A stretch of 64,000 bases of DNA from the IMG/VR virus record IMGVR_UViG_3300005326_000042, positions 1-64,000 of that record; one strand, 5' to 3'. This stretch comes from a virus. Taxonomy: Duplodnaviria; Heunggongvirae; Uroviricota; Caudoviricetes. Of the stretch, positions 37,904-52,271 are shown piece by piece. Numbering within the stretch: position 1 is the first letter of the stretch; each line of letters opens with the position of its first letter. The notes beneath the pieces were generated by a model. That model was not told where the DNA came from, did not search any database, and saw nothing but the letters and a program-made list of their open reading frames with translations. A program made the translations under genes and the position numbers.

Positions 37904-38190
37904 TTTGTATCCTCCAAAATCCTACTTAATGTTATAATAGCCCTATTTTCAGAGTTTCCTTTAAATGGATTATTCTTAAAAGTTTCAATTACGTATCTAA
38001 GAACTTCTCTATCTCCATCAAATAGAATAACTGGTTTGCCGCCGCACCAATCTTTCACAAAATCCTCAAGATGTTCTCCAGCCATCATTTGCCATCCCAA
38101 CTCGCGTTGATCTTCGGGTTCTTCTAACATAGATGTTAGTTTTCTATTCCATTCTTTTAATTGGTCGAAGTTCACTCTTTCCACCACCAA
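37900..38190 (-). CDS. hypothetical protein
   Basis: Track ORF. Confidence 0.4.
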   Translation of the reverse strand: MVVERVNFDQLKEWNRKLTSMLEEPEDQRELGWQMMAGEHLEDFVKDWCGGKPVILFDGDREVLRYVIETFKNNPFKGNSENRAIITLSRILEDTK

Positions 38191-38292
38191 GGAGTATATT
38201 CTTCAGATTTAACTTTCCTTTTTGATAAAGAATTGATATTCTCAAGAGACTGGAGAATATTAATTATAGGAATTGTGGAGTCGAAGTTCATG

Positions 38293-38667
38293 TTAATCTC
38301 CTTTCTTCGCCATCCTAAATTCTCGGTCGCACTCTCCACCTAATTCCTCTGCATCATTTATCAATTTGTCAATAGCTTTTATTTTCGCTGCCAACCTCTT
38401 GTGTAATCTTATTAAATCTGGATTCTTTTCTGCGCAAGATTTACAGAATTGAGTGTGATGACTTGTTAGAGGTTCCCGACCCCCATCGTCGTATGTAATA
38501 TACTCGCTTTCATCATTAAACCCAATTATTTCCTCTCTACAGGAATGACAAGCAAACTTCCCGCAGATAGCACAGTATCTGTTTCCCCAATGTTCTACTT
38601 CTTTTTCCTTGCAGAAATCACAGATTTCTATGTCCTTGGTGGTTGTAATTGTTATTTGTTGTTTCAT
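38293..38667 (-). CDS. zinc-finger hypothetical protein
   Basis: CDFC...CAICG..CHSC...CKSC. Confidence 0.4.
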   Translation of the reverse strand: MKQQITITTTKDIEICDFCKEKEVEHWGNRYCAICGKFACHSCREEIIGFNDESEYITYDDGGREPLTSHHTQFCKSCAEKNPDLIRLHKRLAAKIKAIDKLINDAEELGGECDREFRMAKKGD

Positions 38668-38669
38668 TT

Positions 38670-38954
38670 CTATTTCTCCTCCACCTTCAAAACCCCACTA
38701 TCCTTTCCAGCAAGTGTATCTGAACTAATCGCGCGGAGGATAGGAGCGGTTTGTGAATCGTTATTGATATCTTCAGAAATAAATCTGTACCCTAGTCTGG
38801 AGTCATATACGACTGTCGGACTTCCATTTTCGTAGTGATAGATAGTTAGAGTGTTGGTTTCTTGTGTAATTTCTCCTTGGATTTGCCAAGATAAGAATCC
38901 TATCCAGAGAAACAGAATCATTAGTGCCGCGAGAGCGATGTAATTTTGTTTCAT
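38670..38954 (-). CDS. membrane-anchored hypothetical protein
   Basis: N-terminal TM/signal anchor. Confidence 0.4.
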   Translation of the reverse strand: MKQNYIALAALMILFLWIGFLSWQIQGEITQETNTLTIYHYENGSPTVVYDSRLGYRFISEDINNDSQTAPILRAISSDTLAGKDSGVLKVEEK

Positions 38955-39208
38955 GAAGATTCCTTTTCCAACTTCTTTTCTGCTTTTAACATCCTTGTTA
39001 CGATAATTGTAAATTCTTTCTCAAATTCGCCCCATGATCCATCTTTAGTGGCATATCCAAAACATCTTCCAATCTCTAACCAATGTCGAAGATAATCTTC
39101 AGGTTTGGCTTCTTTGTGGCGAATTCCAGTATCGATCAAATTTTCAATTGCGCCCCAATCGCCTTCTTTGGCAGCGGCTTCTAGTTTTGCTTTTATGGTT
39201 ATGGGCAT
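38951..39208 (-). CDS. hypothetical protein
   Basis: Track ORF. Confidence 0.4.
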   Translation of the reverse strand: MPITIKAKLEAAAKEGDWGAIENLIDTGIRHKEAKPEDYLRHWLEIGRCFGYATKDGSWGEFEKEFTIIVTRMLKAEKKLEKESS

Positions 39209-39641
39209 AATATCTCCTTATCCGACATCGTATTTATAGTTAACGCTAGGACGCTAAAATACTCCTTATCTTCTGTAAGCGATATCTATAATTGGTGTTA
39301 CCATTTTAATCAACTAAGACCTTTTAGAACAAAATAGATATTTATTCAGGATCATCGTCTTCTAATTCGTCTAATCTTCTATTTAGTTTAAAAATTACAT
39401 ATCCGATTCCTAATATGGCTATACTCTGAATCATATCAACAAACTGCTCAGGTGTCATTAAATACTTATTACTTGGTATAGTATTTATATTTACTGTTAA
39501 GGCGACTTAGAAATAAATTACAAAAGATAAAAATAGACTATCGCTTTTCTAATTTCCGAAGTCTAATTCTTGTATCCATGAGTAGATATATGATTCCAAG
39601 CGATATAAAAGTCTGCATCATGTCAAGAAATTGTTGGAAAG

Positions 39642-39980
39642 TCATTCTTTTGTTGCCTCCTCGTTTTCTGTTTCGAACAACATGTAATGAAGTTCGCCCG
39701 CGATGTTACATTTTACGTTGGAATCTCTGTTTACGGAATAATAGTCGTAACCTTCTTCAATACAAAATTTCTTGTCCTCTTCAGAATAGTCTGGAGCTAG
39801 GATGAAAGGAGGCGAGCATAGCGAATTTCCGTCTATCATAACTAAGATTGAGTGAGCCAGTCCATATAGTTTCTCTTTCTCAGTTCTGTCATGGACTTGA
39901 TCGGACCAGAATTCACATAGATTTCTCAGGTTTTGCAGGAATTCGTCTCTTACTTGTTCCATATTCAATTCGTGTGACAT
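39642..39980 (-). CDS. hypothetical protein
   Basis: Track ORF. Confidence 0.4.
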   Translation of the reverse strand: MSHELNMEQVRDEFLQNLRNLCEFWSDQVHDRTEKEKLYGLAHSILVMIDGNSLCSPPFILAPDYSEEDKKFCIEEGYDYYSVNRDSNVKCNIAGELHYMLFETENEEATKE

Positions 39981-40005
39981 AATTTAGTATTATATGGGAA
40001 AGTAT

Positions 40006-40875
40006 TTAAGCCTTTCTAAGTTTGTGACTTTTTCTTATAGCTTCTCCCTTTCTACTACAATTACAGTTTGCACATTCAAGTCTATAATCCTCTTTTAAAG
40101 ATTCGGGCCAGCCTTGTTGACGAAAATTGGAGAGCAATGCCGTACTATTGCGCTCTCCATTTCTTCTCCGCTCCGCGCCATCGTTATGTATGTGAGAGAT
40201 AGTTAAAAATTTTAATTCCGTTATTCCACATGGACAACCACCAAAGAATTCAAAAGCTTCTTTCCAGAGTTTAGCTGAGTATCTTTGATTTTTAGTTTGC
40301 AATTCCCAAGGTAAATCCAAATATTCCCTTCTTCTCGCCAAATTATGATTCCAACATAAAACTCTCAGATTAGATAATTTATCTTTCGGATAAGTATCAT
40401 TAGTAACGGCTAGACGTAAGGAATGTCCACTATATCCCTTCTTCTTGTCGATATATCCTGTCTCATCGATATGGTCTACGGTTAAATAATCGGGATTAGT
40501 CACATTACAAAGAGAACATTTACAGCCACCCAAGATTTCAAGTACTTGAATTTTATTTTCTTCGCGATATTTTTTATGGTGTTCTTTTATTTTATCTTTA
40601 TTTTCATTATAATACCTTTTCCCGTATTCTTTATTATGTTCTTTATTTTCCTTATAATACTTTTTTCCACATTCTTTCCTGTGCTCTTTATTTTCTTCAC
40701 GATATTTTATATCGTATTCTTTTTTGTGTTCTTTGTAGTTTGGATTATCCCAATTAGATATCGTTTGTTGACACACTCCACATTCCTTAGCTATTTCTCC
40801 CTGACTTTTCCCAAAAACATTAATTTGGAGATCCAACCATTCTTTATTTTGATAAATAGGTTTTTCTTCACTCAC
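40006..40875 (-). CDS. HTH + double HNH-motif endonuclease, paralog 1
   Basis: N-terminal KEWLDLQ...IAKECGVCQQTISNW HTH; K/E/Y repeats; GGCKCSLC...VDHID...LRVLCWNHN and GGCPCG...ISHIHND...ECANCN; GTG start after AGGAGGT. Confidence 0.6.
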   Translation of the reverse strand: MSEEKPIYQNKEWLDLQINVFGKSQGEIAKECGVCQQTISNWDNPNYKEHKKEYDIKYREENKEHRKECGKKYYKENKEHNKEYGKRYYNENKDKIKEHHKKYREENKIQVLEILGGCKCSLCNVTNPDYLTVDHIDETGYIDKKKGYSGHSLRLAVTNDTYPKDKLSNLRVLCWNHNLARRREYLDLPWELQTKNQRYSAKLWKEAFEFFGGCPCGITELKFLTISHIHNDGAERRRNGERNSTALLSNFRQQGWPESLKEDYRLECANCNCSRKGEAIRKSHKLRKA

Positions 40876-41029
40876 TTTTTGACCTCCTCTTAATATCTTC
40901 CTTGATTAATCCCCTTAGAAGAGCGGAAGCGGAAGTCTCATCGTCGTCAGCCATGTTTTCTAACTCATCTTTTAAATGTTTAGAGAGTTTGAAAATAAAA
41001 GTAGCTGTTTCTTTGTCAAGTTGTTTCAT
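40868..41029 (-). CDS. ribbon-helix-helix protein coupled to HNH paralog 1
   Basis: 53 aa, TFIFKLSKHLKDELENMADDDETSASALLRGLI; stop overlaps HNH start; below track cutoff. Confidence 0.45.
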   Translation of the reverse strand: MKQLDKETATFIFKLSKHLKDELENMADDDETSASALLRGLIKEDIKRRSKSE

Positions 41030-41303
41030 ATTAAACACCATATATAAAATTTGTAGTTATAATATAATAATTATTAATATTTAAATCTTTCGGTTGAATT
41101 TAATTTTATTCAATTAATTTTTTTAAAAACAAACTTAAATTTGCCTTTAGACAGTTAAATCAGAATTTAAAAGCGAGGTTCATAACGCGATCCAACCGCG
41201 CTAATTCCCTCGCCATGCGCATATGATCGGCATCCCATTTAAGGCTTGCTATCCGCGCCTTGGTGAGGCAACGTTCCAACTATAATATCTGTGAGGTCTC
41301 ACC

Positions 41304-42125
41304 ATGACAAATAAAGCTTTACTTGCGGGAATCAATGCCTATATGCAATCTCCGCTTAGAGGTTGCATCAACGATGTACTTGATGTAGAGAACTATTTAC
41401 TAGGAAAGAATTTCCAGTGTACCAAACTTCTCGACTCTTCCGCCACCAAACCCAATATTCTAAATGGACTTAACACACTTATAAACGGAAGCCACGCAGG
41501 AGATGTATTGGTGTGGTATTTTAGCGGCCACGGATCTTACATTTTAGATAATAATGGAGATGAAACAGACGATCAATATGATGAGTGCTTGATTTCTTAT
41601 GACTACTTCACAAACGGAAATTTCATTCGTGATGATGATTTAGCTGAAATATTTACAAGAATTCCAGAAGGAGTTTTAGTTGAGTGTATCCATGACTCCT
41701 GCTTTTCAGGAGATTCCACAAAACTATTTAATGATCTAAATTCAAATACCCGTTTTGTAGATATCGATACTAATTCTATAGATTTAAAATCTTCTGCTTC
41801 AAAATATATTCCTATCCAGCTTTCTAGACCTAAAAAGAAAGTTGTGAAAATTGGAAGGATAGGACATAAAGTCAGTAATATTACCATGAACCACATCTTA
41901 TCAAGCGCCTGTGGTGAAACTCAGACTTCAAGCGAGGTTCGGGTAAACGGTCAATATCGCGGAATTTTTACATACCTGCTTACAAGAAGACTCAGACTTT
42001 CTCCAACTATGAGCCGATCTGGAGTAATAAGTAATGTTCGAGCAAACCTTGCTGCACTAGGGTTGTCACAAATACCTATGTTAGAGTGTATCGATAGTGA
42101 AAAATTAGAGCCTTATTTCTCATAA
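41304..42125 (+). CDS. caspase-like cysteine peptidase (peptidase C14 / metacaspase family)
   Basis: Catalytic His in VLVWYFSGHGS and catalytic Cys in IHDSCFSGDS in caspase order (His before Cys); N-terminal KALLAGINAY; SD GAGGT. Confidence 0.65.
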   Translation: MTNKALLAGINAYMQSPLRGCINDVLDVENYLLGKNFQCTKLLDSSATKPNILNGLNTLINGSHAGDVLVWYFSGHGSYILDNNGDETDDQYDECLISYDYFTNGNFIRDDDLAEIFTRIPEGVLVECIHDSCFSGDSTKLFNDLNSNTRFVDIDTNSIDLKSSASKYIPIQLSRPKKKVVKIGRIGHKVSNITMNHILSSACGETQTSSEVRVNGQYRGIFTYLLTRRLRLSPTMSRSGVISNVRANLAALGLSQIPMLECIDSEKLEPYFS

Positions 42126-42142
42126 TTTTTTGAGGTTTTCCT

Positions 42143-42514
42143 ATGCAAGACTCAGAGGCTCGGATTTTGACCGCTATTGGCGAGTTGAAGACTGATATTC
42201 AGAATATAAAGGATGATTTGGACGAACTAAAAACGTTCAAGGACGAACTACAACGGACCCAACAATCATTTATAGATTATAAAGAAACTAGAAAAGATCT
42301 TCCGAAACAAATTTCTGATCTGAAGGAGAAAGTTACGGTTTGCCAAACAAATTGTATTAATGAGTCCAAGGTGTTTGAACAAGTTTGTAAAGAGGTTAAA
42401 TTCCTAATGGGATGGTATAAAACAGGAACAGGAGTCGTTATATCCGTGAATGTTCTTGTTGCTGTTTTAGTTCTCGTTTCTAAATATATTGATATTTCTA
42501 AATTATTTTCGTGA
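42143..42514 (+). CDS. coiled-coil protein with C-terminal TM anchor
   Basis: Heptad N-terminus, C-terminal GVVISVNVLVAVLVLV. Confidence 0.45.
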   Translation: MQDSEARILTAIGELKTDIQNIKDDLDELKTFKDELQRTQQSFIDYKETRKDLPKQISDLKEKVTVCQTNCINESKVFEQVCKEVKFLMGWYKTGTGVVISVNVLVAVLVLVSKYIDISKLFS

Positions 42515-42523
42515 GGGATTGAG

Positions 42524-42940
42524 ATGGATATTTCATTTTTAGCTGCTGTTATACTGTTCTTACTGGCTTCCGCTCTGGTTGCTTGGTATCTGGCTTCATA
42601 TAAGAGATTGTCTGTAATTCTAAAATTCCTCCTCATCACTCCTTTTATTCTCGGTTTTGCAATAGCTCAAGATGAGATCGAAGAAGGGCTTTTTGTAGAC
42701 GATCTTACGGGAATAGAAGTCACAGAAGACGACAAACCTCTCATCCTCAATCCCGATATTTTAACAAAATCCGCAGAAGCAATTAATAACGCGGTAGAAT
42801 CTGTAATTAAACTTCCAGAAATCATCCCAGACGGTTTATCTCAGGAACTTCAAATTCAGGAAAAGAATAGAGTCTTTTTGTTAGATAATACCTTGAATTT
42901 CACACCAAGAAATAACACTACGGAGTTGATTGTGGTTTGA
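42524..42940 (+). CDS. membrane protein with two N-terminal TM helices
   Basis: MDISFLAAVILFLLASALVAWYL and LLITPFILGFAIA. Confidence 0.45.
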   Translation: MDISFLAAVILFLLASALVAWYLASYKRLSVILKFLLITPFILGFAIAQDEIEEGLFVDDLTGIEVTEDDKPLILNPDILTKSAEAINNAVESVIKLPEIIPDGLSQELQIQEKNRVFLLDNTLNFTPRNNTTELIVV

Positions 42941-43107
42941 ATTCTGACGAAGAGCCGTTGGTTTGTAGAAAATGTTTTTGCAGGTTTTCTTGTGGGGAGA
43001 GGTGTGAGAAAGCAAAAGAAGTTAATTTTATCTAATTAATTTTTTTAAATTACTTTGTTAATATAGACAACTTCTAAACTATACTCTTTACAAGGAGAAT
43101 TGTTTGT

Positions 43108-43749
43108 ATGGCTAAATTATATAATGCTCCGTTTCAAGGTCCGAGGTACACGCTTCACGGACCTTTGGCGTCTCGTCCTACTACTGCCAAGGAAGAGACA
43201 TATTTTCACGATACTACGAATAATGAATGGTACTACTATACTTCGTCTGCTTGGAATAAAATAGGAAAATCTGACGTTCTCCTTAAAGACGGAACAATTG
43301 GATTAACCGCAGATTGGGACGCTGGATCTATAGATATCCAGGCAGAAACTTTTACTTCAGATGTTCCAATCGGAACCGCGCCTCTCACCGTTACCTCTAC
43401 CACAAAAGTTACCAATTTAAATTCTGATCAGGTCGATGGTTCAGACCTGTCAGATCTCCTTGCAAAAGAAGAGACGCCGTATTTAGGAAGAGGAACAAAT
43501 TATCAAATAACTGCGGGAGATTATATTATCGCGGTTACTTGTGTTGGAACAGATATTGATGTCACTCTTCCAAACCCGACCCTCAAGAAGACGGTGATTA
43601 TCAAAAAGCTAGATAGTACGTCTCATGCTGTTAACATTGAAGCCTACGACGGAGAAAACATTGAGGACAGCGCTACCGATCTTATTCTGACTCACCAGTA
43701 CGACTCTGTGACTCTTTCCAGTAACGGAATTAATTGGTTTATTGTTTAG
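43108..43749 (+). CDS. tail fibre / baseplate-associated protein
   Basis: Thr/Ser/Gly-rich beta-type composition, precedes fibre module; SD AAGGAG. Confidence 0.45.
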   Translation: MAKLYNAPFQGPRYTLHGPLASRPTTAKEETYFHDTTNNEWYYYTSSAWNKIGKSDVLLKDGTIGLTADWDAGSIDIQAETFTSDVPIGTAPLTVTSTTKVTNLNSDQVDGSDLSDLLAKEETPYLGRGTNYQITAGDYIIAVTCVGTDIDVTLPNPTLKKTVIIKKLDSTSHAVNIEAYDGENIEDSATDLILTHQYDSVTLSSNGINWFIV

Positions 43750-43759
43750 GTGATTTAAT

Positions 43760-44224
43760 ATGACTTATTTTGGTTTATTGAAAGGAAAGACCGTCCTCGG
43801 AGTCGTAAAAGAATGGCTCATGGACGATGACGGTCATGGGCAGGTGGATGTGGTGTCCACAGCAGCGCCAGCCACCCTACCTTTGCCCACAGGCGCGGCT
43901 ACGGAATCGACTTTGGCGGCGATGAACGGGAAGCTCGGTGCTCTCAGCAGAACTCCCCGCTCGGGTCAGCAAACGGTAGCCGCAGCGGGAACAGAAGTCG
44001 CTCTAGGTGCATCCCAAGTCTATAGGGAAGTTACAGTGATTGCCAACAGCGACAACACCGGAAACATCTATATTGGTAACGACGGGACTGATCATGTATC
44101 AAGTACCACGGGCGGCAAGCTTCCAGCGGGCGGATTTGCCACTTTCCACAATGTAGATATCTCTAAGATATTTGTAGATGTTGCGGTCTCCGGCGAAGGT
44201 GTCTCCTGGTTTGGTGAGATTTGA
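43760..44224 (+). CDS. fibre-associated structural protein, paralog A
   Basis: GQQTVAAAGTEVALG...VTVIANSDNTGNIYIGNDGTD...GEGVSWFGEI; paralogous to 44473..44865. Confidence 0.5.
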   Translation: MTYFGLLKGKTVLGVVKEWLMDDDGHGQVDVVSTAAPATLPLPTGAATESTLAAMNGKLGALSRTPRSGQQTVAAAGTEVALGASQVYREVTVIANSDNTGNIYIGNDGTDHVSSTTGGKLPAGGFATFHNVDISKIFVDVAVSGEGVSWFGEI

Positions 44225-44472
44225 TGTTCGGCCAGCATCACTGCTCAAAATGTGGCCTAAAATATAACAATGCGTCAGTAGACGGGCGAGATTACACTTA
44301 CACCTGCAAGAACTGCTGCCAAGTTGAAACCTTCCACATGGATGGTACTAGCACCACATTCGACTGCCCGATATGCGCGAAGACTGCATTGAATGCAAAT
44401 TTCGCGCCCAATAACGTGAACAGGAAGATGGATTTCTCGGATAAATATAACTCAATGTATCGGGTGATTTGA
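44221..44472 (+). CDS. zinc-finger small protein between fibre paralogs
   Basis: CSKCG...CKNCC...CPICAKT. Confidence 0.4.
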   Translation: MMFGQHHCSKCGLKYNNASVDGRDYTYTCKNCCQVETFHMDGTSTTFDCPICAKTALNANFAPNNVNRKMDFSDKYNSMYRVI

Positions 44473-44865
44473 ATGGCAGATAGCAATTTGAAGATTCTGA
44501 ATGCGGATGAAGATCCGAAATGGCAGAAGGTGAAGGGGGCGCAAACGGAGGGAGATCCCGGATCGCCGTACGTGTGCCTGGATGGGAGCAATACCCCGAA
44601 GAGTGGACAGAAAGCAGTGGCATCAGCAGGTACTGCGGAAGCCCTGGGAACGACCCAAGTATTCAAGCGGGTTACAGTGGTTGCCAATGCCGATAATACA
44701 GGAGATGTGTATGTTGGCAATGACGGTGCTGACGATGTCAGCAGCATCACGGGAATAATCTTACCCCCGGGCGGCTGGTTCGACTGGTTCTTTGTGGATA
44801 TCGCTGATCTCTATGTAGATGCTGAAGTATCTACTGAAGGCGTGTCTTATGGGGGAGAAATATGA
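44473..44865 (+). CDS. fibre-associated structural protein, paralog B
   Basis: GQKAVASAGTAEALG...VTVVANADNTGDVYVGNDGAD...TEGVSYGGEI. Confidence 0.5.
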   Translation: MADSNLKILNADEDPKWQKVKGAQTEGDPGSPYVCLDGSNTPKSGQKAVASAGTAEALGTTQVFKRVTVVANADNTGDVYVGNDGADDVSSITGIILPPGGWFDWFFVDIADLYVDAEVSTEGVSYGGEI

Positions 44866-47039
44866 GCGCAGGACAATTTATTCAGGGAGTGCTACGCGGT
44901 GCATATCGCATATATAATGTGCACGATTTTGGCGCGGTGGGGGATGGCGTCCACGATGACACAGCAGCATTCCAAGCATGCATAACAGCCGCCGCTGGAA
45001 AGGGGCCTGCCATCGTTCCCAAGCCACTTGTTCGATATCTAGTATCGTCTCAGGCCCCGATGGCGTATGGATCATGGAATTATTGCATCGCTGTTCCCAG
45101 CCACACGCAGATAATTGGTCTCGATAGGCCCGAAATTCAGCTCAATGCCGCAGATACAGATGTTTGCCGAACTATATTTACAAATTCGGATTGGGTAAAC
45201 GGGAATACTGATATCGAGATCGTGGGACTGTCTATAGATGGAAATTACAGGAACAGACAGGCGGGAACAGCTAATAATCTGGTACTTATTCACATGGGAG
45301 TATCAGACGCTGGCGCTACCGTTGGATGCACTGACATTCGAATAGAGTCAAATAAGTTGTACGATGGAATTCTCGGTATCGGACTATATAACTACATCAA
45401 AGGTGCTGCCAAAAACAGCAACTGCAAGGTCAATTCGAATGTCATCGACTCGATGCAAAATTTCTGCATAGAATTCGACTCCACCGATAACTCTGAGATG
45501 AGTGGCAACCAATCATCGAACAGTTTGAATTACGATGTCGGCGGGGCGTATAATCTAATATTTTGGTCAAACAACAACACCGTTGATGCAAACCAATTCA
45601 AGTCTTCGAATATCAACAACACGGGCATCTGGATCAAGCACGGCAGTTCGGGAAACATCATCACTAACAACAACATCATTGCTCCGATGGGGTGCATCTT
45701 CTTCGAGACCGAGCCGGTTGAAACCGCTTCGATCACTGAAAACAACACTGTATCGGAAAATTACTTCGAGGAAACCGGCGCTTCGTCCAAGTTCTTGATC
45801 TACAATGCAGCTGGATCGACATTCAGAAACAATACAATCCGTGACAACAAATTCGTAGGTTGGCCTCTGTGGATCAGGGCAACGCAAACCGCTGCGAGAG
45901 ATTGCACAATCGATGGTCTTTATATTCGTAACAATGAATTTATTGTGCCCGACAATGTTAAGAACATGTGCATAGGATCAGCCGCCACAGAGGGCGGCGC
46001 CGGCACGTCCTGGGACAATATATTCGTCGAGGGGAACACATTCAGGAGGGGGTATATTGCTCTAGTTGGAAAAGTCAATCGCCTCTTCATCCGACGCAAC
46101 AAATTCATAGCAGTGGCCGGAACTCAGATCAATATCGATACTACAACATCGATTACAGAAGCTTACATTGATGATAATACAGCGATTGGCGGAAATAACT
46201 TCGTCTACACAGATGGAACGCTCCTGGGGCTGAAAACTCTCAGGCGCAATACGATTATTGCAAGCGGTGGGACGGCGATAACAGTCGGATCTGCAAATGC
46301 AATAGACATTTCTGACAATGATATAGATGTACCGACGACAGGATACGCATTCAATATATTAGCCGGATCACATACATTTAAGCGGAATAAAATTCACGAT
46401 GGGCAATACGGAATTACCGCCCCAGTGGGCACCGTTCAAACAATAAAGGATTGTGAGTTTTCGGGGTTGACTGGAGCCACACCTCGCCTAAAAGGCGCGG
46501 CAACGTATATTACCGATGTTTCGACAGAGCATTTCCAAGGTGTATTAGCGGCATCGGCTACTGCGATTAGATCAAATGAAGATCTGAGCGCGGCAACACC
46601 CCTCACCTTTACACTGGATGCTCAACCCGATGTTCCGAGGCGGCTTGTATGGGCCTTTGATGCGCATGCTCAGATAACAGCATTCTCCATTACTTTTACT
46701 GGAGTGAATGCGAAGGACGTTGCCGTTACACAAACGATCACAGAAGCTTCTGGCTGGTCAGGTGTCACGAATGAAGCATTTGCCACTATCACATCTATCA
46801 TCATGACCGCCAGAACAGGAACTGGTGCAGGTGATACGATTGATATCGGTGTCAATGATGTGATTGGCTTGGCAACCTCGCTTGATGTCGCGGCGGATGT
46901 GTTTAAGGTGAAAAAGAACAGTGCGAATTATCCCGCAGCAAGTTATACGGTGGAAGATGTTTATGACACGATCGACTTGAGCACGGGCGGGGCGATAACA
47001 GGCGGGGATGATTTCACGATTTGGTACAAGGCACTATAG
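44862..47039 (+). CDS. tailspike/receptor-binding protein with pectate-lyase-like right-handed beta-helix
   Basis: YNVHDFGAVGDGVHDDTAAFQACI N-terminal motif of the pectate-lyase superfamily; many N..I/N.F beta-helix rungs; 725 aa. Confidence 0.6.
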   Translation: MSAGQFIQGVLRGAYRIYNVHDFGAVGDGVHDDTAAFQACITAAAGKGPAIVPKPLVRYLVSSQAPMAYGSWNYCIAVPSHTQIIGLDRPEIQLNAADTDVCRTIFTNSDWVNGNTDIEIVGLSIDGNYRNRQAGTANNLVLIHMGVSDAGATVGCTDIRIESNKLYDGILGIGLYNYIKGAAKNSNCKVNSNVIDSMQNFCIEFDSTDNSEMSGNQSSNSLNYDVGGAYNLIFWSNNNTVDANQFKSSNINNTGIWIKHGSSGNIITNNNIIAPMGCIFFETEPVETASITENNTVSENYFEETGASSKFLIYNAAGSTFRNNTIRDNKFVGWPLWIRATQTAARDCTIDGLYIRNNEFIVPDNVKNMCIGSAATEGGAGTSWDNIFVEGNTFRRGYIALVGKVNRLFIRRNKFIAVAGTQINIDTTTSITEAYIDDNTAIGGNNFVYTDGTLLGLKTLRRNTIIASGGTAITVGSANAIDISDNDIDVPTTGYAFNILAGSHTFKRNKIHDGQYGITAPVGTVQTIKDCEFSGLTGATPRLKGAATYITDVSTEHFQGVLAASATAIRSNEDLSAATPLTFTLDAQPDVPRRLVWAFDAHAQITAFSITFTGVNAKDVAVTQTITEASGWSGVTNEAFATITSIIMTARTGTGAGDTIDIGVNDVIGLATSLDVAADVFKVKKNSANYPAASYTVEDVYDTIDLSTGGAITGGDDFTIWYKAL

Positions 47040-47080
47040 GGCAAAAGGAGAACCCCAGTTCTCCTAAGTCCCTCATTTCA

Positions 47081-47485
47081 TCATTTTTGGCTGAGAACTT
47101 CCGTATTAGTCCTATGTGATATCATTAGGCTCTTCAGTGCAGCGTTCTGCGACTCTATGATATCCAAGGCCCGCTTTGACCAATCTGCTACTGATTCTCC
47201 TGGCTTCCCCGCACATTCTTTGAGACGGTCGTAATCCGCTGCATATACCCAAATCATTTTCTTTTCATCCGACTTCTTTTTCGCGGATAAAAACATGCAC
47301 TTATCGAAGGATACTTGCCCTGGATACAATTTAAAATCCCTTAAATTGATCTCCTCTATATCCGGATAGAAGGTGCAATTGATAAAACGCACTTCGGCGC
47401 TCTCGTTTATAGCATCCGCGATTATTGTTTCGCACTCCGATAGGTTCAGAACCTCATCAAATCGTCTTATTATTTTTGGCTCCAT
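47081..47485 (-). CDS. hypothetical protein
   Basis: Track ORF. Confidence 0.4.
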   Translation of the reverse strand: MEPKIIRRFDEVLNLSECETIIADAINESAEVRFINCTFYPDIEEINLRDFKLYPGQVSFDKCMFLSAKKKSDEKKMIWVYAADYDRLKECAGKPGESVADWSKRALDIIESQNAALKSLMISHRTNTEVLSQK

Positions 47486-47665
47486 GTAGAAAACTTATAA
47501 TCTTTATAATATTTATAACCATCGTACAACATAAGTCCAAAAGTACATGACTATTCAGCAAAGTCGATCATTCCAATCATTATAGGAATACATAGATCCT
47601 AGAGCGCGCCCCTATGCGGCAGATAGCGAAAATAGGAGTATAAGAAAAGGAGAATAAAAAATAGA

Positions 47666-47935
47666 CTAAAGTCCTAGATGCCGAAGAGTCGAGGATTTCC
47701 TTCGCTTCGGTCTCTCCTTCTGAATCTGATACGCAGGCCGCTCGACCTCTTTCGGCACAGCGTCCACGATGTCGGACTTGCCACAGTTCGGGCACGGTCT
47801 GCCCTCTGGTTCAACCTCGTGGATCTTGTCGGGCTTTAGGGTGGGCATTCTAATGCCTCTGTGGAGGTGGGTCCACTGGAGGAAGTGATGCTCGCAGTCG
47901 AGGCAGCGTTTCTCCTGGACGCCGACGATCTTCAT
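47666..47935 (-). CDS. zinc-ribbon protein (GC-rich operon)
   Basis: Start at internal ATG (MKIVGV) overlapping upstream stop (ATGA); CLDCEHH...CPNCG. Confidence 0.4.
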   Translation of the reverse strand: MKIVGVQEKRCLDCEHHFLQWTHLHRGIRMPTLKPDKIHEVEPEGRPCPNCGKSDIVDAVPKEVERPAYQIQKERPKRRKSSTLRHLGL

Positions 47936-48075
47936 GGCTTCCTCTTGCGAAGATCTATCTCCGCTTGAAGGGCCTTGCGACATACGGCGGCCACGTTGAT
48001 CTCCTCCAGATCCTCTAGGGATTTTTGCATCTCTTCGGAGATCTGGAAGGTTTTTGGGATGGGGTATTTCGCCAT
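47932..48075 (-). CDS. ribbon-helix-helix-like small protein (GC-rich operon)
   Basis: Internal ATG (MAKYPIPKTFQISEEMQKSLEDLEE...) coupled to neighbours. Confidence 0.35.
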   Translation of the reverse strand: MAKYPIPKTFQISEEMQKSLEDLEEINVAAVCRKALQAEIDLRKRKP

Positions 48076-48617
48076 CACTGCCTGCCCCCAAATTTCTCTA
48101 GGATGGGCGTCAGACAAATGTCTAGCGCCATTCCTCGGAAATGGCATTCGTGCATTGTTACGAGCGACGCGACCGCACGCTCCTCCTCAATTTCTGGAGT
48201 GGTGACCTCCCCGAGGTCGATCAATGCCTGGACAACCCAGTCAGGCATGGTCTCTATCGGGGTCGCTGGCTCCTGTGGCCACCATGGGCACCCCTGATTT
48301 GGCGGGGTAACTCGGAATCGCTGTATCTTCCCATCTTGGAAAGATACGAACTGGTAATATTGATCGTTTATCCCATACCAGGTGGCAATTACGCAACCTG
48401 GATGAGCTTTCAGCCAGTTATCCCAATCGTCCCATCCCACTCGAAGGGATGTCTCCCCGGCTATTCTCTCATGATCCGTACTCGCTGTTATCCAGCGAGA
48501 GTCAGTCCCATGATGGGACTGAAACGTTTTGCTCTCACCCGGTTGGGGCTCTTTCCGCCCCTTCATACTATCTCTCATATTTGGCATAGCATCTACTAGT
48601 ATCTCATAGTATATCAA
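48075..48617 (-). CDS. hypothetical protein (GC-rich operon)
   Basis: Start uncertain (possibly internal MPNMRD). Confidence 0.35.
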   Translation of the reverse strand: MIYYEILVDAMPNMRDSMKGRKEPQPGESKTFQSHHGTDSRWITASTDHERIAGETSLRVGWDDWDNWLKAHPGCVIATWYGINDQYYQFVSFQDGKIQRFRVTPPNQGCPWWPQEPATPIETMPDWVVQALIDLGEVTTPEIEEERAVASLVTMHECHFRGMALDICLTPILEKFGGRQ

Positions 48618-49006
48618 TGTATCGCCTTAATCAGTGTGTACTTTTGCCACCTACCATTCAGGTACATCAAGCAGAACAAGGACTATAGGAATAGAAAACA
48701 ACGCCTACCGATATCGGTTATAAAACAGCAAAATCGACCCTCTGATATCGATGTGCTTCTAGGATAGAATCTTGGCTGGAAGTACATGATTATCGAGGTA
48801 GCTCTGCCCTCCAAAAGAGCTTTTCACAGATAACCAATAGCAGTAAAACCACGCACTGCGAACAATGGACGCCCCAATGACTGTTCATAAGAATCCAATC
48901 GGAGAAACTAACAATCGAAATTATCCTCATTGAGAAATAAAATCTACTAAAAGAGAAGAAACCATCCATCGAAATCTTTTTATAGTAATAGATATATTAA
49001 TTCATT

Positions 49007-49597
49007 ATGAAAAAGAAACTCAAAGAATCCTCCACAGATATTCCTCTCGATTCTATATCTATTGATCCAAACCTGTATTCTGATTCCAGCAGTAATACCA
49101 GCACAGACTACGAGGGTTTAACCACAAGCTCAAATGTGACTTTAGATCCAGAGGAAGGCCAATGGAACTATACAAACGAGTTGCCACCTCTAGAAGGAGC
49201 AAAGTATGAACCTTTTGATTTAACTCCTTTCTCTCCAGACGAAGAAAGAGAATTTATCCCCAGCAAGAAATCTGCTCGTTTCTATGGACAGCTCGAATTC
49301 CCTAAAAACGTAACCATAATTCGCGCTCCAGAAAAGGAATATCAATTCTCCTCTCTCCTCGCTGTAAATCAGATCTTGGATTCTCTAGAATTCAACACCA
49401 ACGATTCCCGCGCGGCAAGTGAGGCGGTTAGAAACGCACTGATTGCGAAGTTTCCGAATCTGCCTGTGGGTTTAGCAAAAGACGATTCTGGTTTTGTGGT
49501 AAACGTAATCTGGTTTGCGCCTAATGTGAGGAAATATTTTGATTACGGAACGAAGAGTTGGATGGTGTTTCATCCGAGCAATGTCGTGATGATTTGA
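49007..49597 (+). CDS. hypothetical Ser/Thr-rich protein
   Basis: Track ORF. Confidence 0.4.
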   Translation: MKKKLKESSTDIPLDSISIDPNLYSDSSSNTSTDYEGLTTSSNVTLDPEEGQWNYTNELPPLEGAKYEPFDLTPFSPDEEREFIPSKKSARFYGQLEFPKNVTIIRAPEKEYQFSSLLAVNQILDSLEFNTNDSRAASEAVRNALIAKFPNLPVGLAKDDSGFVVNVIWFAPNVRKYFDYGTKSWMVFHPSNVVMI

Positions 49598-49705
49598 ATT
49601 CTGGATTTAAATATTTGGAGTATTTGGAAAGGATCAAAAGATGTAGTGTAGCATACGAAAGTTGGAAGAAAATTGTAGATAATTTTGGTAAAAAGGTGAT
49701 AAAAG

Positions 49706-49909
49706 ATGAGTGAAGATGGATGTTGTTCTGATGAAAAGTGTTGTTCCTCAGAAGATGAATGTAAAATAGTTGTATGTGAAGCTTGTGAAAATAAGGGATG
49801 GCAACTTAATCTGGTAACAGGAATGAACGAGATATGTCAGGTTTGTTGCGGCTCAGGAATTCGGTTTAAGTGTAATTGCGGAGACATTCCGAGTTATGAT
49901 ATGTTTTGA
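49706..49909 (+). CDS. Cys-rich small protein
   Basis: CC..EKCC...C..CEAC...CQVCCGSG..FKCNCG. Confidence 0.4.
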   Translation: MSEDGCCSDEKCCSSEDECKIVVCEACENKGWQLNLVTGMNEICQVCCGSGIRFKCNCGDIPSYDMF

Positions 49910-49922
49910 AGGGTGATGAGAA

Positions 49923-50300
49923 GTGAGAAAGCTGAAATGTGCAAATTGTTCTAAAATTGTAGAAACCGAAAAAGAATTGAAGAAATATGTGTGCCCCTCT
50001 TGTGGCGCAATAAATACCCCTGAAGATCCTAATGCTGGTTTTGGAGATCAAGCGTGTGGTTGTCTCTTACCGGATGGGTTTGAGTTCAGGCTACCAGCGG
50101 GCAAGATAGGAAACAAATTTACTGGATATAAGTACATTAGTCCTGATAATGGCGACGAGTTAACTAAGACTGAATGGATGCTCTCATTTGGACTTGACCC
50201 AGATTTGGCTCTGGAATATATGAGGTCAAATGCTGCCGCAGATGAGAGAGATGATGATGTGGATCTGTCCACTCTCGGCAAGAAGAAGGTGAGAAAGTGA
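49923..50300 (+). CDS. zinc-ribbon protein
   Basis: CANCS...CPSCG. Confidence 0.4.
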   Translation: MRKLKCANCSKIVETEKELKKYVCPSCGAINTPEDPNAGFGDQACGCLLPDGFEFRLPAGKIGNKFTGYKYISPDNGDELTKTEWMLSFGLDPDLALEYMRSNAAADERDDDVDLSTLGKKKVRK

Positions 50301-50713
50301 GACTTCTTTTAACTATCCTCCTTTTGGTTTCTCTAATTTCTGTTTCTCTTGCTGCTCCAATCGCACTGAAGCCAGATGAGATTGTTAAGAACCATAAAGG
50401 ATTAGCACCCGAAAAAGTGGATCTTTCTTGGACGGATGAAGGGGCTCTTGGAGAGATAGATGGTTCTATGAATCATTTATCTTCCTGGAAACCGATAGTT
50501 ATTCCTAGTTTTGGTCATTATAATACTGAATCTCTTGGTGTTACTCAGGAAAAGAGCGTCGGAATACCAACTGGACTCATAAATTTCAGTAAAACAATTG
50601 AGCCGATCCCAGTGAGCATAAAAGAGACAAATTATCTCCTTGAGCTTAATTTGTCTGAGTTAAACAACACAAACGTAACTGAAATTAGTTCTAAAGATTG
50701 GGTTTATCTATGA
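50297..50713 (+). CDS. secreted protein
   Basis: Signal peptide LLLTILLLVSLISVSLAAP. Confidence 0.45.
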   Translation: MRLLLTILLLVSLISVSLAAPIALKPDEIVKNHKGLAPEKVDLSWTDEGALGEIDGSMNHLSSWKPIVIPSFGHYNTESLGVTQEKSVGIPTGLINFSKTIEPIPVSIKETNYLLELNLSELNNTNVTEISSKDWVYL

Positions 50714-50725: not shown

Positions 50726-51538
50726 TTATACTACATATTTTTTACTAAGGTTGCAGTTAGCACATTCTAATCTGTAATCTTCTTTCAGAGTTTCGGGCCA
50801 ACCTTGTTGGTAGAATCTTTCTAATAATCTGATTCCAGTCTTTTCTCCGTTTTTTCTTTGCTCCGCCCCATCGTTGTGAATGTGGGAGATTGTTAAAAAT
50901 TTTAGTTCTGATATTCCACAAGGGCAAGGACCGAAGAAATCAAATGCCATCTTCCAAAATTTAGTTTGTCGTCTTTGTTGTCTTGTCTGGAGGGTGGGTG
51001 GAAAATCTAAATATTCTTTTGTCCTTCCAAGATTATGATTATAACACAATACCCTTAAATTAGATAATTTTTCTTGTGGATAAATCTTATTTAAAATTGC
51101 AGAATATAAAGATATACTATATAATCCGTCTTTCCTATCTAGGTGTCCTGTTTTATCGATATGATCTATTGACAGAAAGTCCACGTTGGTCACATCACAA
51201 AGACTACATTTACAGCCTCCAAGAACATTTAATACCTGAATCTTTATGTTTTTTCGATATTCTTTTACTTTATATTTATTTTTTTCTTTCTGTTCTTTTA
51301 TTTTTTCTCTATTTTCTTTATAATAACTTTCTTGATATTCTTTTATTTTATGCTTGTTTTCTTCCCGATATTCTTTTTGTCTTTTTCTATTGTGTTCATC
51401 GCTCCAATAAGATATTGTAGACTTACCCACTCCACACTCTTTTGCAACTTGTCTTTGGTTCTTTTTCAAAACATTTAATTGATAATCCAACCATTCTTTA
51501 TCTCGATAAAGAGGTTCTTCTTTCTTAAAACCACTCAT
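50726..51538 (-). CDS. HTH + double HNH-motif endonuclease, paralog 2
   Basis: Same architecture as 40006..40875 (KEWLDYQ...VAKECGV...TISYW; LRVLCYNHN; ECANCN). Confidence 0.6.
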   Translation of the reverse strand: MSGFKKEEPLYRDKEWLDYQLNVLKKNQRQVAKECGVGKSTISYWSDEHNRKRQKEYREENKHKIKEYQESYYKENREKIKEQKEKNKYKVKEYRKNIKIQVLNVLGGCKCSLCDVTNVDFLSIDHIDKTGHLDRKDGLYSISLYSAILNKIYPQEKLSNLRVLCYNHNLGRTKEYLDFPPTLQTRQQRRQTKFWKMAFDFFGPCPCGISELKFLTISHIHNDGAEQRKNGEKTGIRLLERFYQQGWPETLKEDYRLECANCNLSKKYVV

Positions 51539-51696
51539 ATAACCAACTCTGGAAAAGGAAACGTTTCTCTGTATTTTTCTTTAATTATTTGCCTTAAAAA
51601 CGCGGCTTCAGAGAGTTCATTAAAATCTGAAAGTTTAGAAAGCATTTTTCGGGTTTCTGGTTTCATCCGAAACCCAACCATAACAGTATCTGACAT
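51535..51696 (-). CDS. ribbon-helix-helix protein coupled to HNH paralog 2
   Basis: VMVGFRMKPETRKMLSKLSDFNELSEAAFLRQII; ATGA overlap with HNH start. Confidence 0.45.
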   Translation of the reverse strand: MSDTVMVGFRMKPETRKMLSKLSDFNELSEAAFLRQIIKEKYRETFPFPELVI

Positions 51697-51974
51697 AGTT
51701 AACACCAAATAAAATTATTTTTATAATAATATAAACTATTAGTATTTAAATGTTTCGCTAGAATTAACCGAAAGTTTTAAATATTAAAAGTGATGATAGA
51801 TAATATCACGGAGATTTAAAAATGACAGATCTAGAATGGTTCTGTTGGATTGCTTATCAAGAAAATATGTGGAGCAAAGATCTAGAAATCTCTGAATACA
51901 TCCATGTTTTAATTGAAGAAACAAATTGGTCTAATTTACAGAATGGACCTATTTGCGGAATTTAAAAAAAGAAA

Positions 51975-52271
51975 TTAAAGGTAGGGATTAACAGACCCTA
52001 CGTACAAAATAGGTTTAGAAACATTTATGGGCTTTCCCAAGTCTTTACCGCTATTTAAAAATGCGTAAATGGACGGCGTATACACAGAACCGACTGCATC
52101 AACAGGTTTCATGCTCATAAAATAAGGCTCATCGAATACAGAAGCTTGCAGTCCAGATAGAGAAACTATTCCATCTTCTCCAATCGCGAATTTTGTTTTC
52201 TCATCGACCTGTCCACCACTGCCGCCCGCAAGAATTGCAAGTGCCGCGAGTAATAGAATTATTGTTTTCAT
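51975..52271 (-). CDS. secreted protein
   Basis: Signal peptide MKTIILLLAALAILAGGSGG. Confidence 0.45.
   Translation of the reverse strand: MKTIILLLAALAILAGGSGGQVDEKTKFAIGEDGIVSLSGLQASVFDEPYFMSMKPVDAVGSVYTPSIYAFLNSGKDLGKPINVSKPILYVGSVNPYL

What the first reader, a model, noticed from the sequence alone, without database searches (positions are those of the whole stretch)
43760..48650. Compositional island: fibre/tailspike genes and an adjacent 3-gene operon have much higher GC than the rest of the window
From about 43.8 to 48.65 kb the sequence is visibly GC-rich, with runs such as GGCGCGGCTACGGAATCGACTTTGGCGGCG. Long antisense ORFs appear in several frames there (44298..44750, 45567..45887, 48141..48599), which is a high-GC artefact. 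The rest of the window is roughly 35-40 percent GC. The island covers the receptor-binding genes (two paralogous fibre proteins and a pectate-lyase-fold tailspike) plus a minus-strand operon of RHH, Zn-ribbon and unknown genes. This fits recent horizontal acquisition of a host-recognition module from a higher-GC virus, or a chimeric assembly.
Basis: seen in the sequence. Interest (0 to 1): 0.6.

Follow-up and report, generated by a model that had tools for sequence, protein, structure and literature searches.

The report
Foreign high-GC tailspike island in phage
A 4.8-kb stretch of a large, AT-rich phage genome that holds a tailspike-type host-recognition module and a small neighbouring gene cassette really is compositionally foreign, and was most likely picked up by recombination from related phages with about 50% GC; this kind of mosaicism is well known in phages.

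Summary
Window 43790-48560 has 48.7% GC against 37.5% for the rest (9 SD above any other window of equal length). The shift holds at fourfold-degenerate sites, in codon usage (RSCU correlation with the backbone -0.03 and -0.16; nulls 0.91 and 0.79) and in GC-corrected tetranucleotides. It is not a chimera at its borders: MEGAHIT, JGI and Logan contigs cross both borders with 100% identity. All of them, however, break at 44900-44933 inside the island, and they may all derive from the same reads. The island has at least two parts: a plus-strand virion module (two jelly-roll paralogs, a Cys-rich protein, a beta-helix tailspike with a widely shared C-terminal domain) and a minus-strand 170-aa/RHH-like/Zn-ribbon cassette, plus a 134-aa gene. 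Relatives of the island genes lie in 46-54% GC phage contigs. One of these, L012 (50% GC), is a relative of the whole neighbourhood. It has a within-genome-like tetranucleotide match to the plus module (r=0.76), and homology stops six codons into the tailspike. Best reading: recent recombinational acquisition from higher-GC relatives. This is ordinary phage mosaicism, unusually clear here. The "fibre" and "RHH" labels are not established.

The parts
43108..43749 (+). Native (backbone-GC) tail-fibre-like gene, 213 aa, abutting the left edge of the island
   Evidence: GC 0.419, fourfold GC 0.330 (z=0.1). Weak tblastn matches to annotated distal tail fibre proteins of Thermus phage phiFa and Synechococcus phage S-SCSM2R, and to HRTV-29.
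43760..44224 (+). Jelly-roll paralog 1 (154 aa), first island gene; the GC jump occurs at about 43790, roughly 10 codons into the gene
   Evidence: GC 0.529, GC3 0.52. 59% identical to paralog 2. 65% identical to P0003 of L012.
44224..44472 (+). 82-aa Cys-rich (CxxC-type) small protein between the paralogs
   Evidence: Translation. Only sub-threshold zinc-ribbon hits. Fourfold GC 0.517.
44473..44865 (+). Jelly-roll paralog 2 (130 aa)
44851..44882 (+). Conserved junction: end of the small gene, RBS, ATG and the first six tailspike codons (MSAGQF). Nucleotide homology to L012 ends here.
   Evidence: DNA alignment A6; blastn L012 568-832 = window 44615-44879; both beta-helix proteins start MSAGQF.
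44900..44932 (.). Stretch spanned only by the window's own assembly. ENA contigs end at 44899 and start at 44922; the JGI contig starts at 44933. The only inter-record mismatch is at 44935.
44862..46523 (+). Tailspike body: right-handed beta-helix, polysaccharide-acting type, starting at about residue 18 with no separate N-terminal anchor domain
   Evidence: PF13229 E=4.7e-13 and PF12708 E=1e-8. PHROG tail fibre/tail spike families. AlgE4/AlgE6 mannuronan C5-epimerase, E=2e-6. Best full-body relative only 33% identical (P0161).
46524..47039 (+). Tailspike C-terminal ~170-aa beta-sandwich domain, widely shared among viral proteins with different bodies
47046..47065 (.). Perfect 8-bp hairpin (AGGAGAAC-CCCA-GTTCTCCT) between the convergent tailspike and 134-aa genes; followed by TTTT on the minus strand
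   Evidence: Read directly from the sequence. Not reported by the terminator scan.
47081..47485 (-). 134-aa gene of unknown function, intermediate composition
   Evidence: GC 0.425, fourfold GC 0.478. No family or phage match.
47666..47935 (-). 89-aa protein with two CxxC pairs (zinc-ribbon-like), last gene of the minus-strand cassette
   Evidence: Translation. Fourfold GC 0.711. Sub-threshold Zn_ribbon_8 hit.
47932..48075 (-). 47-aa RHH-like protein, overlapping both neighbouring genes
   Evidence: Translation. No Pfam hit. Profile against PDB, best E=0.16. A small gene follows the 170-aa homolog in the same position in L013 and L014.
48075..48587 (-). 170-aa protein (called as 163 aa from 48566 in other assemblies), first gene of the cassette
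   Evidence: Five homologs, 47-59% identical, in contigs of 46-54% GC. No family or structure match.
49923..50300 (+). Right-flank 125-aa zinc-ribbon gene shared with L012 and three other 50-54% GC viral contigs; slightly raised GC
   Evidence: 48% identity to the L012 105-aa protein. L036-L038. GC 0.429, fourfold GC 0.451.
41304..42125 (+). Left-flank caspase-like (Peptidase_C14) gene, fully backbone-like in composition, shared with L012 at only 34% identity
   Evidence: PF00656 E=8.9e-20. Fourfold GC 0.205. L012 match.

Best explanation
The island is real, foreign DNA inside a large low-GC tailed-virus genome. It consists of at least two horizontally acquired units that have not yet drifted towards the recipient's composition. 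Unit 1 (43760-47039, plus strand) is a virion or host-recognition module that sits directly after a native tail-fibre-like gene. It holds two paralogous small jelly-roll proteins, a Cys-rich small protein, and a beta-helix (depolymerase-type) tailspike ending in a beta-sandwich domain that hundreds of other viral tail proteins share. It most likely entered by recombination with a related virus of about 50% GC, of the kind represented by contig L012. The tailspike body itself was exchanged at a junction only six codons into the gene. Unit 2 (47666-48587, minus strand) is a tightly overlapping three-gene cassette (170-aa protein, RHH-like protein, zinc-ribbon protein), probably regulatory or accessory. 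It was inserted separately, together with or next to the 134-aa gene. Shown here: the foreign composition, the contiguity across both borders, the gene content, and the higher GC of every relative's context. Inferred: the direction and mechanism of transfer, the number of events, and the functions (receptor binding or polysaccharide degradation for unit 1; a moron-like accessory role for unit 2).
For: Composition: GC 0.483 vs 0.375, 9 sd; fourfold-site GC 0.48-0.71 vs 0.324 +/- 0.084. RSCU correlation with the backbone is -0.03 for unit 1 (null 0.91 +/- 0.03) and -0.16 for unit 2 (null 0.79 +/- 0.10). GC-corrected tetranucleotide correlation of unit 1 with the backbone is 0.25 (null 0.78 +/- 0.04). 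Contiguity: ENA k141_183067 = window 32063-44899 crosses the left border; ENA k141_433156, JGI Ga0272380_10005341 and Logan SRR5248219_227431 cross the right border; all are 100% identical apart from one base. Donor-like relatives: small-protein homologs lie in contigs of 46-52% GC; 170-aa homologs in 46-54% GC; zinc-ribbon 125-aa homologs in 50-54% GC, one from the same sample. L012 shares the small gene (65-71%), the zinc-ribbon gene (48%) and the caspase gene (34%). Its remaining DNA matches unit 1's tetranucleotide signature at r=0.76, or 0.63 without its beta-helix gene; size-matched within-genome nulls are 0.64 +/- 0.06 and 0.55 +/- 0.07. High GC is not intrinsic to the protein family: CTD-bearing genes in 16 other viral loci match their own contig's GC (0.31-0.53). 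Tail association: CTD genes lie next to baseplate genes (L027) and minor-tail/tape-measure genes (L021), and the adjacent native 213-aa gene is tail-fibre-like. Junction: homology to L012 ends at about 44882. Two units: RSCU r=-0.02 between them, and the 134-aa gene, the cassette and the 196-aa gene are absent between the beta-helix gene and the 69/105-aa genes in L012.
Against: No close relative of the low-GC backbone was found in any collection, so it could not be shown that the island is absent from sister genomes. No donor with near-identical genes exists in the databases; the best matches are 59-71% for small proteins, and only the C-terminal domain of the tailspike is shared. The other assemblies may all come from the same reads, so their agreement excludes assembler artefacts better than it excludes library artefacts. 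All of them break at 44900-44933, so the continuity of the two halves of the island rests on the window's assembly, on reading-frame continuity, and on the same gene order in L012. The L012 comparison rests on one 4.5-kb contig. Unit 2 is not distinct from the backbone in GC-corrected tetranucleotides (0.47, null 0.55 +/- 0.07), and the codon statistics for its 0.9 kb are noisy. The functions of seven of the eight island genes are unknown.
Confidence: 0.78

Rival explanations
1. Assembly chimera: the high-GC stretch belongs to a different, co-occurring virus and was joined to the low-GC genome by the assembler.
For: A 54% GC virus carrying a homolog of the flanking zinc-ribbon gene occurs in the same sample (L038). 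ENA and JGI contigs all break at 44900-44933 inside the island, and the only mismatch between records lies at 44935. The other records may derive from the same reads.
Against: Both compositional borders lie inside contigs produced by three other pipelines (MEGAHIT, JGI, Logan) with 100% identity. Each of the two ENA contigs is itself mosaic, with low-GC backbone plus a high-GC end, so a chimera would need two independent misjoins at sites with no shared repeat. The backbone on the two sides shares composition and paralogous HNH-like genes. The borders fall at gene ends, and the tailspike ORF and its ATGA overlap with the upstream gene run across the break, with the same layout as in L012.
Confidence: 0.05
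2. Native genes kept GC-rich by selection, for example through the amino-acid needs of Gly/Ala/Thr-rich virion proteins, expression level, or avoidance of host nucleases, with no horizontal transfer.
For: GC1 and GC2 are also raised in the small proteins (0.58/0.49). Virion surface proteins are often compositionally odd.
Against: The shift is as strong at fourfold-degenerate sites and in synonymous codon choice and survives GC correction of tetranucleotides. The non-structural minus-strand cassette is the most GC-rich part. The native tail-fibre-like gene next door has backbone composition. Homologous CTD-bearing genes in other viruses follow their own genome's GC, down to 0.36-0.38.
Confidence: 0.07
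3. Capture from the bacterial host, from a resident prophage or chromosomal element, rather than from a co-infecting free virus. The island would then reflect the host's GC, with the phage being more AT-rich than its host.
For: The small jelly-roll family occurs in a prophage-like region of a 502-kb bacterial contig with 52% GC (L009) and in a temperate phage with a lysogeny module (L010). The CTD occurs on two MAG contigs.
Against: The best match in both sequence and signature is L012, which also shares flanking non-island genes (caspase, zinc-ribbon) with this virus and so looks like a related virus, not a host locus. The host is unknown. This is a variant of the best explanation, not a true alternative.
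Confidence: 0.1

Closest known systems
Phage mosaicism and 'morons': gene cassettes recognised by nucleotide composition that differs from the surrounding phage genome (concept from lambdoid phages HK97/HK022; my own knowledge, not checked in the paper library)
   Same: Sharp-edged segments with foreign GC and codon usage, borders at gene ends, unrelated neighbours on either side. The minus-strand three-gene cassette is transcribed against its surroundings and is absent from the equivalent site in relative L012.
   Different: Own promoter and terminator, part of the classic moron definition, could not be shown. Absence from close relatives of the recipient could not be tested. Unit 1 is a replacement within a host-recognition locus, not an add-on.
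Receptor-binding-protein (tailspike/tail-fibre) module exchange in tailed phages, e.g. P22-like, K1/K5, CBA120 and G7C-type tailspikes (established knowledge)
   Same: A beta-helix polysaccharide-acting protein at a tail-fibre locus. A body unrelated to that of the nearest relative. An abrupt loss of homology at a defined junction.
   Different: In the classic cases a conserved N-terminal anchor domain of about 100+ residues is retained and the C-terminal part is swapped. Here only six N-terminal codons are shared with the relative, the beta-helix starts at about residue 18, and the widely conserved piece is the C-terminal ~170-aa beta-sandwich. The exchange crosses an 11-13 point GC gap.
AlgE-type mannuronan C5-epimerase / pectate-lyase-like right-handed beta-helix proteins (PDB 2pyg, 5lw3; Pfam PF12708, PF13229)
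   Same: N-terminal cap motif (YNVxDFGAxGDG) and beta-helix repeats; significant sequence matches.
   Different: Only a distant match (E=2e-6 over residues 18-132/330). No evidence for epimerase versus lyase versus hydrolase chemistry. Carries an extra viral C-terminal domain.
Halorubrum tailed virus 29 gp42 and similar ~90-150-aa uncharacterised jelly-roll proteins of tailed viruses
   Same: 42% identity over 87 residues. Same predicted fold as many small viral proteins.
   Different: HRTV-29 gp42 lies directly after the major capsid protein gene. Here the genes lie at a tail-fibre/tailspike locus and are duplicated. No member has a known function.

Membership tests
Horizontally acquired compositional island / phage moron | Base composition deviates at silent sites, not only through amino-acid content | tested here: met
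   Fourfold-degenerate GC 0.48-0.71 vs 0.324 +/- 0.084 in 89 backbone genes.
Horizontally acquired compositional island / phage moron | Codon usage and oligonucleotide signature differ from the host genome beyond GC | tested here: met
   RSCU r=-0.03 and -0.16 vs nulls 0.91 and 0.79. GC-corrected tetranucleotide r=0.25 vs null 0.78 for unit 1. Unit 2 is not distinct by tetranucleotides (0.47 vs 0.55 +/- 0.07).
Horizontally acquired compositional island / phage moron | Homologs occur in other lineages whose composition resembles the island | tested here: met
   Contexts of 46-54% GC for all three traceable island/flank families. L012 signature r=0.76 with unit 1.
Horizontally acquired compositional island / phage moron | Absent from, or replaced in, close relatives of the recipient genome | not testable with these tools
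   No close backbone relative found in IMG/VR or JGI metagenomes. Only the higher-GC relative L012 is available, and it lacks the 134-aa gene, the cassette and the 196-aa gene.
Horizontally acquired compositional island / phage moron | Own promoter and terminator (classic moron definition) | tested here: inconclusive
   Consensus scans are at chance level (19 vs 12.2 +/- 3.8 promoters; 5 vs 5.5 terminators). There is an 8-bp hairpin at 47046-47065, and short motifs are shared by the two upstream regions, but these are weak.
Phage tailspike / depolymerase (beta-helix receptor-binding protein) | Right-handed parallel beta-helix domain | tested here: met
   PF13229 E=4.7e-13, PF12708 E=1e-8; AlgE4 E=2e-6.
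Phage tailspike / depolymerase (beta-helix receptor-binding protein) | Encoded in or next to the tail/baseplate module | tested here: inconclusive
   Adjacent to a tail-fibre-like gene, and CTD relatives lie next to baseplate and minor-tail genes. But no capsid, portal or baseplate gene was identified in this window, and the neighbours are replication genes.
Phage tailspike / depolymerase (beta-helix receptor-binding protein) | N-terminal virion-anchor domain preceding the beta-helix | tested here: not met
   The beta-helix cap motif begins at residue 18 and aligns to residue 3 of AlgE4. The conserved domain is C-terminal instead.
Phage tailspike / depolymerase (beta-helix receptor-binding protein) | Trimeric assembly and polysaccharide-degrading or -binding activity | not testable with these tools
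   Needs biochemistry or a multimer model.
Ribbon-helix-helix (CopG/Arc/MetJ) regulator (47-aa gene) | Significant match to an RHH family or structure | tested here: inconclusive
   No Pfam, NCBIfam or PHROG hit. Profile against PDB, best E=0.16. Only the strand-helix-helix pattern visible in the sequence supports the label.
Anti-phage defence or toxin-antitoxin cassette (minus-strand unit) | Match to a known defence or TA component | tested here: not met
   No PADLOC hit for any island protein at E<=0.01.

The most novel reading that the evidence does not exclude
The roughly 32-nt stretch conserved between this 37.5% GC virus and the 50% GC relative L012 (end of the small jelly-roll gene, ribosome-binding site, ATG and the six codons MSAGQF) may act as a dedicated recombination linker. 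Whole tailspike bodies would be swapped there between related viruses with very different base composition, and presumably different hosts. The reproducible contig break 17-50 nt downstream in three assemblies would then reflect several alternative tailspike cassettes coexisting in the sampled population. In this reading the shared C-terminal beta-sandwich, not an N-terminal anchor, is the constant part that docks the spike.
Probability: 0.15. Interest if true: 0.55.

Novelty: new member of a known kind. Interest (0 to 1): 0.33.

Why it matters
This is a clean, quantitatively documented case of host-recognition genes moving between related phages across an 11-13 point GC gap, and the likely donor lineage co-occurs in the same sample. 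It shows that host-range determinants can cross between viruses adapted to compositionally different hosts. It also draws attention to two widespread but unannotated viral protein modules: a C-terminal ~170-aa beta-sandwich on hundreds of tail proteins, and a ~93-aa jelly-roll family. For annotation it is a caution: binning or host prediction based on k-mers would be misled by this segment, and antisense ORFs in it are artefacts. It does not reveal a new kind of biological system.

Tried and rejected
- **Searches that found no match.**
  - blastn and tblastn of the island, the tailspike, the 170-aa gene and the 134-aa gene against 50,697 deposited phages.
  - Word-seeded search of 5.8 billion proteins with the full tailspike. 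The exhaustive HMMER search later showed this was a prefilter miss.
  - Exact-sequence lookups for the tailspike and for the 170-aa protein with my chosen start. The other assemblies truncate the tailspike and call the second gene as 163 aa.
- **Backbone relatives.** Scans of IMG/VR and JGI metagenomes with the 213-aa, 196-aa, caspase and D5 proteins found no close relative. L001, the one caspase hit, is a giant-virus-like contig with a 1,326-aa family-B polymerase and was rejected as a relative. L035 is only 25% identical.
- **Signs of site-specific integration.** No direct or inverted repeats bracket the island. Short motifs shared by the two minus-strand upstream regions are not collinear and are statistically weak. 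There are no tRNAs and no Rfam matches.
- **Transcription and translation signals.** Promoter and terminator scans are at chance level. Shine-Dalgarno usage does not separate island from backbone.
- **Defence or TA role for the cassette.** No PADLOC or NCBIfam hits.
- **Conserved junction in other viruses.** The pattern scan of IMG/VR found none.
- **Source sample.** Not found in the paper library.
- **DGR-type hypervariation as the cause of the assembly break.** Considered and dropped, because the break is at the N-terminus and there is no repeat of the stretch in the window.

Full report

Yes. The stated interval 43760-48650 has 48.3% GC against 37.5% for the rest of the 64-kb window. A two-boundary likelihood fit places the edges at 43790 and 48560 (48.7% vs 37.5%). 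No other window of the same length exceeds 40.3% (mean 37.6%, sd 1.15%), so the island is about 9 sd out.

The quoted GC-rich run and the three antisense ORFs are at the stated coordinates. The sense-strand genes opposite those ORFs have homologs elsewhere, so the antisense ORFs are best read as by-products of high GC.

The shift is not due to amino-acid content:
- Fourfold-degenerate GC is 0.48-0.71 in the eight island genes, against 0.324 +/- 0.084 in 89 backbone genes.
- Synonymous codon usage (RSCU) of the plus-strand genes correlates with the backbone at -0.03. Backbone subsets of the same size give 0.91 +/- 0.03.
- The minus-strand cassette correlates at -0.16 (null 0.79 +/- 0.10).
- GC-corrected tetranucleotide distance peaks at 0.34, against 0.162 +/- 0.014 elsewhere.

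**2. What genome is this?**

The window is part of a large tailed-virus-type genome. It carries an SNF2 helicase, NrdD, an ATP-dependent ligase, a NUMOD3 homing endonuclease, an SPFH protein, a D5-type primase-helicase, a radical-SAM enzyme and a PrimPol. About three quarters of its genes have Shine-Dalgarno sites. There are no tRNAs. It has no nucleotide match among deposited phages.

**3. What is in the island?**

On the plus strand, directly after a native-composition 213-aa gene with weak similarity to distal tail-fibre proteins:
- a 154-aa protein;
- an 82-aa Cys-rich protein;
- a 130-aa paralog of the first (59% identity over 92 residues);
- a 725-aa protein that overlaps the previous stop (ATGA).

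The 725-aa protein has a right-handed beta-helix (PF13229, PF12708; PHROG tail-spike/fibre families; AlgE-type epimerase at E=2e-6). The helix begins at about residue 18, so there is no separate N-terminal anchor domain.

An exhaustive HMMER search showed that only the last ~170 residues are widely conserved. 131 cluster representatives score E<1e-30, at up to 62% identity, and all align to residues ~555-724 while carrying very different N-terminal bodies. In IMG/VR this C-terminal domain occurs in 16 loci, sometimes as a stand-alone ~200-aa ORF. In two long loci it lies next to baseplate genes or near minor-tail/tape-measure genes. Its model has moderate confidence (pLDDT 70.6) and is a beta-sandwich with only generic structural matches.

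On the minus strand:
- a 134-aa gene of intermediate GC (0.425);
- an AT-rich gap;
- three overlapping genes: a 170-aa protein, a 47-aa protein with a strand-helix-helix pattern but no significant RHH match, and an 89-aa protein with two CxxC pairs.

None of these matches a defence, NCBIfam or PDB family.

**4. Is it a chimera?**

Exact-protein lookups found other assemblies of the same virus:
- ENA/MEGAHIT contig k141_183067 equals window 32063-44899 and crosses the left border.
- ENA k141_433156 (from 44922), JGI Ga0272380_10005341 (from 44933) and a Logan contig (48470-52548) cross the right border.
- Identity is 100% apart from one base.

Each contig is itself low-GC backbone plus a high-GC end. 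No repeats at the borders could have misled an assembler. The backbone on both sides shares composition and paralogous HNH-like genes. A chimera at the borders is therefore unlikely.

Two caveats apply. The records may come from the same reads. And all of them break at 44900-44933, inside the island, with the only mismatch at 44935. The join of the two halves rests on the window's own assembly, on an uninterrupted ORF, and on the identical gene layout in a relative.

**5. Where did it come from?**

Every traceable relative of island genes lies in a higher-GC context:
- Small-protein homologs lie in a prophage-like region of a 52% GC bacterial contig, in a 46% GC temperate phage, and in the 50% GC contig L012.
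- The five homologs of the 170-aa protein lie in 46-54% GC phage-like contigs. In two of them the gene is again followed by a small RHH-like gene.
- CTD-bearing genes in 16 other viruses match their own contig's GC, from 0.36 to 0.53. High GC is therefore not a property of the protein family.

The most informative relative is L012 (4.5 kb, 50% GC). Besides the small protein (65-71% identity), it shares the 125-aa zinc-ribbon gene of the island's right flank (48%) and the caspase-like gene of the left flank (34%). It is therefore a higher-GC relative of the whole neighbourhood.

Its DNA, with the homologous small gene masked, matches the GC-corrected tetranucleotide signature of the plus-strand module at r=0.76, or 0.63 with its beta-helix gene also removed. 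Size-matched within-genome nulls are 0.64 +/- 0.06 and 0.55 +/- 0.07. The module matches its own backbone at only 0.25.

Three more carriers of the zinc-ribbon gene are also 50-54% GC, and one of them comes from the same JGI sample as this virus.

The island gene is much more similar to L012 than the flanking shared genes are, as expected if it was exchanged more recently than the lineages diverged. With only three gene families this is suggestive, not conclusive.

**6. Mechanism**

Nucleotide homology between the window and L012 runs through the end of the small gene, the ribosome-binding site, the ATG and the first six codons of the beta-helix gene (both proteins start MSAGQF). It stops abruptly at about 44882. 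The two beta-helix bodies are unrelated by BLAST. This is the footprint of a recombination junction at the extreme N-terminus of the tailspike. It lies 17-50 nt upstream of the reproducible assembly break, which may therefore reflect heterogeneity in the population. That cannot be tested without reads, and a pattern scan of IMG/VR found no further example of the junction.

Relative to L012, the window also has extra genes between the tailspike and the 67/125-aa genes: the 134-aa gene, the three-gene cassette and the 196-aa gene. The cassette's codon usage resembles neither the backbone nor the plus-strand module. I therefore infer at least two acquisitions.

No integration signatures were found: no att-like repeats and no tRNA.

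**7. Limits**

No close relative of the low-GC backbone exists in the collections I could scan. The classic test, that the island is absent from sister genomes, was therefore not possible. No near-identical donor is known. The functions of all island genes except the beta-helix are unknown.

**8. Verdict**

This is a real, sharply bounded, compositionally foreign segment. It is best explained by recent recombinational acquisition of a tailspike-type virion module, and separately of a small accessory cassette, from related phages of about 50% GC (confidence about 0.78). Assembly chimera (about 0.05) and selection-maintained native composition (about 0.07) are much less likely.

The phenomenon, mosaic exchange of host-recognition modules and moron-like cassettes recognisable by composition, is well known in phage biology. 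I classify the finding as a new member of a known kind, of moderate-to-low interest. Its points of interest are the unusual position of the junction, the C-terminal rather than N-terminal conserved domain, and two widespread unannotated protein modules.

Noticed in passing
window 40006-40875(-), 50726-51538(-), 58031-58879(-): Three paralogous genes (51-61% aa, 67-71% nt identity) with an N-terminal HTH and tandem HNH-type Cys/His motifs, at backbone GC. The first two bracket, in direct orientation, the whole plus-strand block 41304-50713 that contains the island. Homing-endonuclease-like genes at these positions could promote recombination of the intervening block.
   Followed up: partly
window 46524-47036 (tailspike residues ~555-724); loci L016-L033: An unannotated ~170-aa beta-sandwich domain, conserved at up to 62-65% identity on hundreds of viral proteins with unrelated N-terminal bodies (beta-helices and others). 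It is sometimes a stand-alone ~200-aa ORF (L016, L017, L019, L028). It has no Pfam or named PHROG family.
   Followed up: partly
window 44900-44935: ENA and JGI contigs of the same virus all stop or start here (44899 / 44922 / 44933). The only base that differs between records is 44935 (C vs A; Ala to Glu at tailspike codon 25). No repeat or perfect palindrome explains it.
   Followed up: partly
window 41304-42125(+): A caspase-like Peptidase_C14 gene (E=8.9e-20) in a phage genome, followed by a coiled-coil/TM protein and a TM protein. Homologs occur in the 50% GC relative L012 and, at 37% identity, in a giant-virus-like IMG/VR contig (L001).
   Followed up: partly
window 47486-47665 and 48588-49006: The two regions upstream of the minus-strand units share short motifs that occur exactly nowhere else in the window (AAGTACATGAYTAT, CAGCAAARTCGAYC, YTATAGGAATA). 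The motifs are not collinear. They could be operator or promoter elements, but the statistics are weak.
   Followed up: partly
window 47046-47065: A perfect 8-bp hairpin with a 4-nt loop (AGGAGAAC-CCCA-GTTCTCCT) between the convergent tailspike and 134-aa genes, followed by TTTT on the minus strand. The terminator scan missed it.
   Followed up: no
L012 3113-3364: The higher-GC relative carries a Tad2-like (anti-Thoeris, PF11195) gene between its homologs of the window's 125-aa and 138-aa genes. The window has no counterpart at that position.
   Followed up: no
L025 and L029 (IMGVR_UViG_3300022212_000093, 54,099 bp): The CTD-bearing gene is split across the two ends of the same contig, which suggests a circularly permuted or complete genome opened inside this gene.
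   Followed up: no
window 51001-52000; 21975-22841; 54366-54773: Other, much milder compositional departures: an AT-rich trough (GC 0.286) over the second HNH-like gene and its upstream region, and two genes with raised GC (0.459; GC3 0.52) and no family match.
   Followed up: no
window 32555-35335(+) and 59184-61643(+): Two separate primase-type genes in one window: a D5-type primase-helicase with a PriL-like (DNA_primase_lrg) segment, and a PrimPol with a DnaG-type zinc finger.
   Followed up: no
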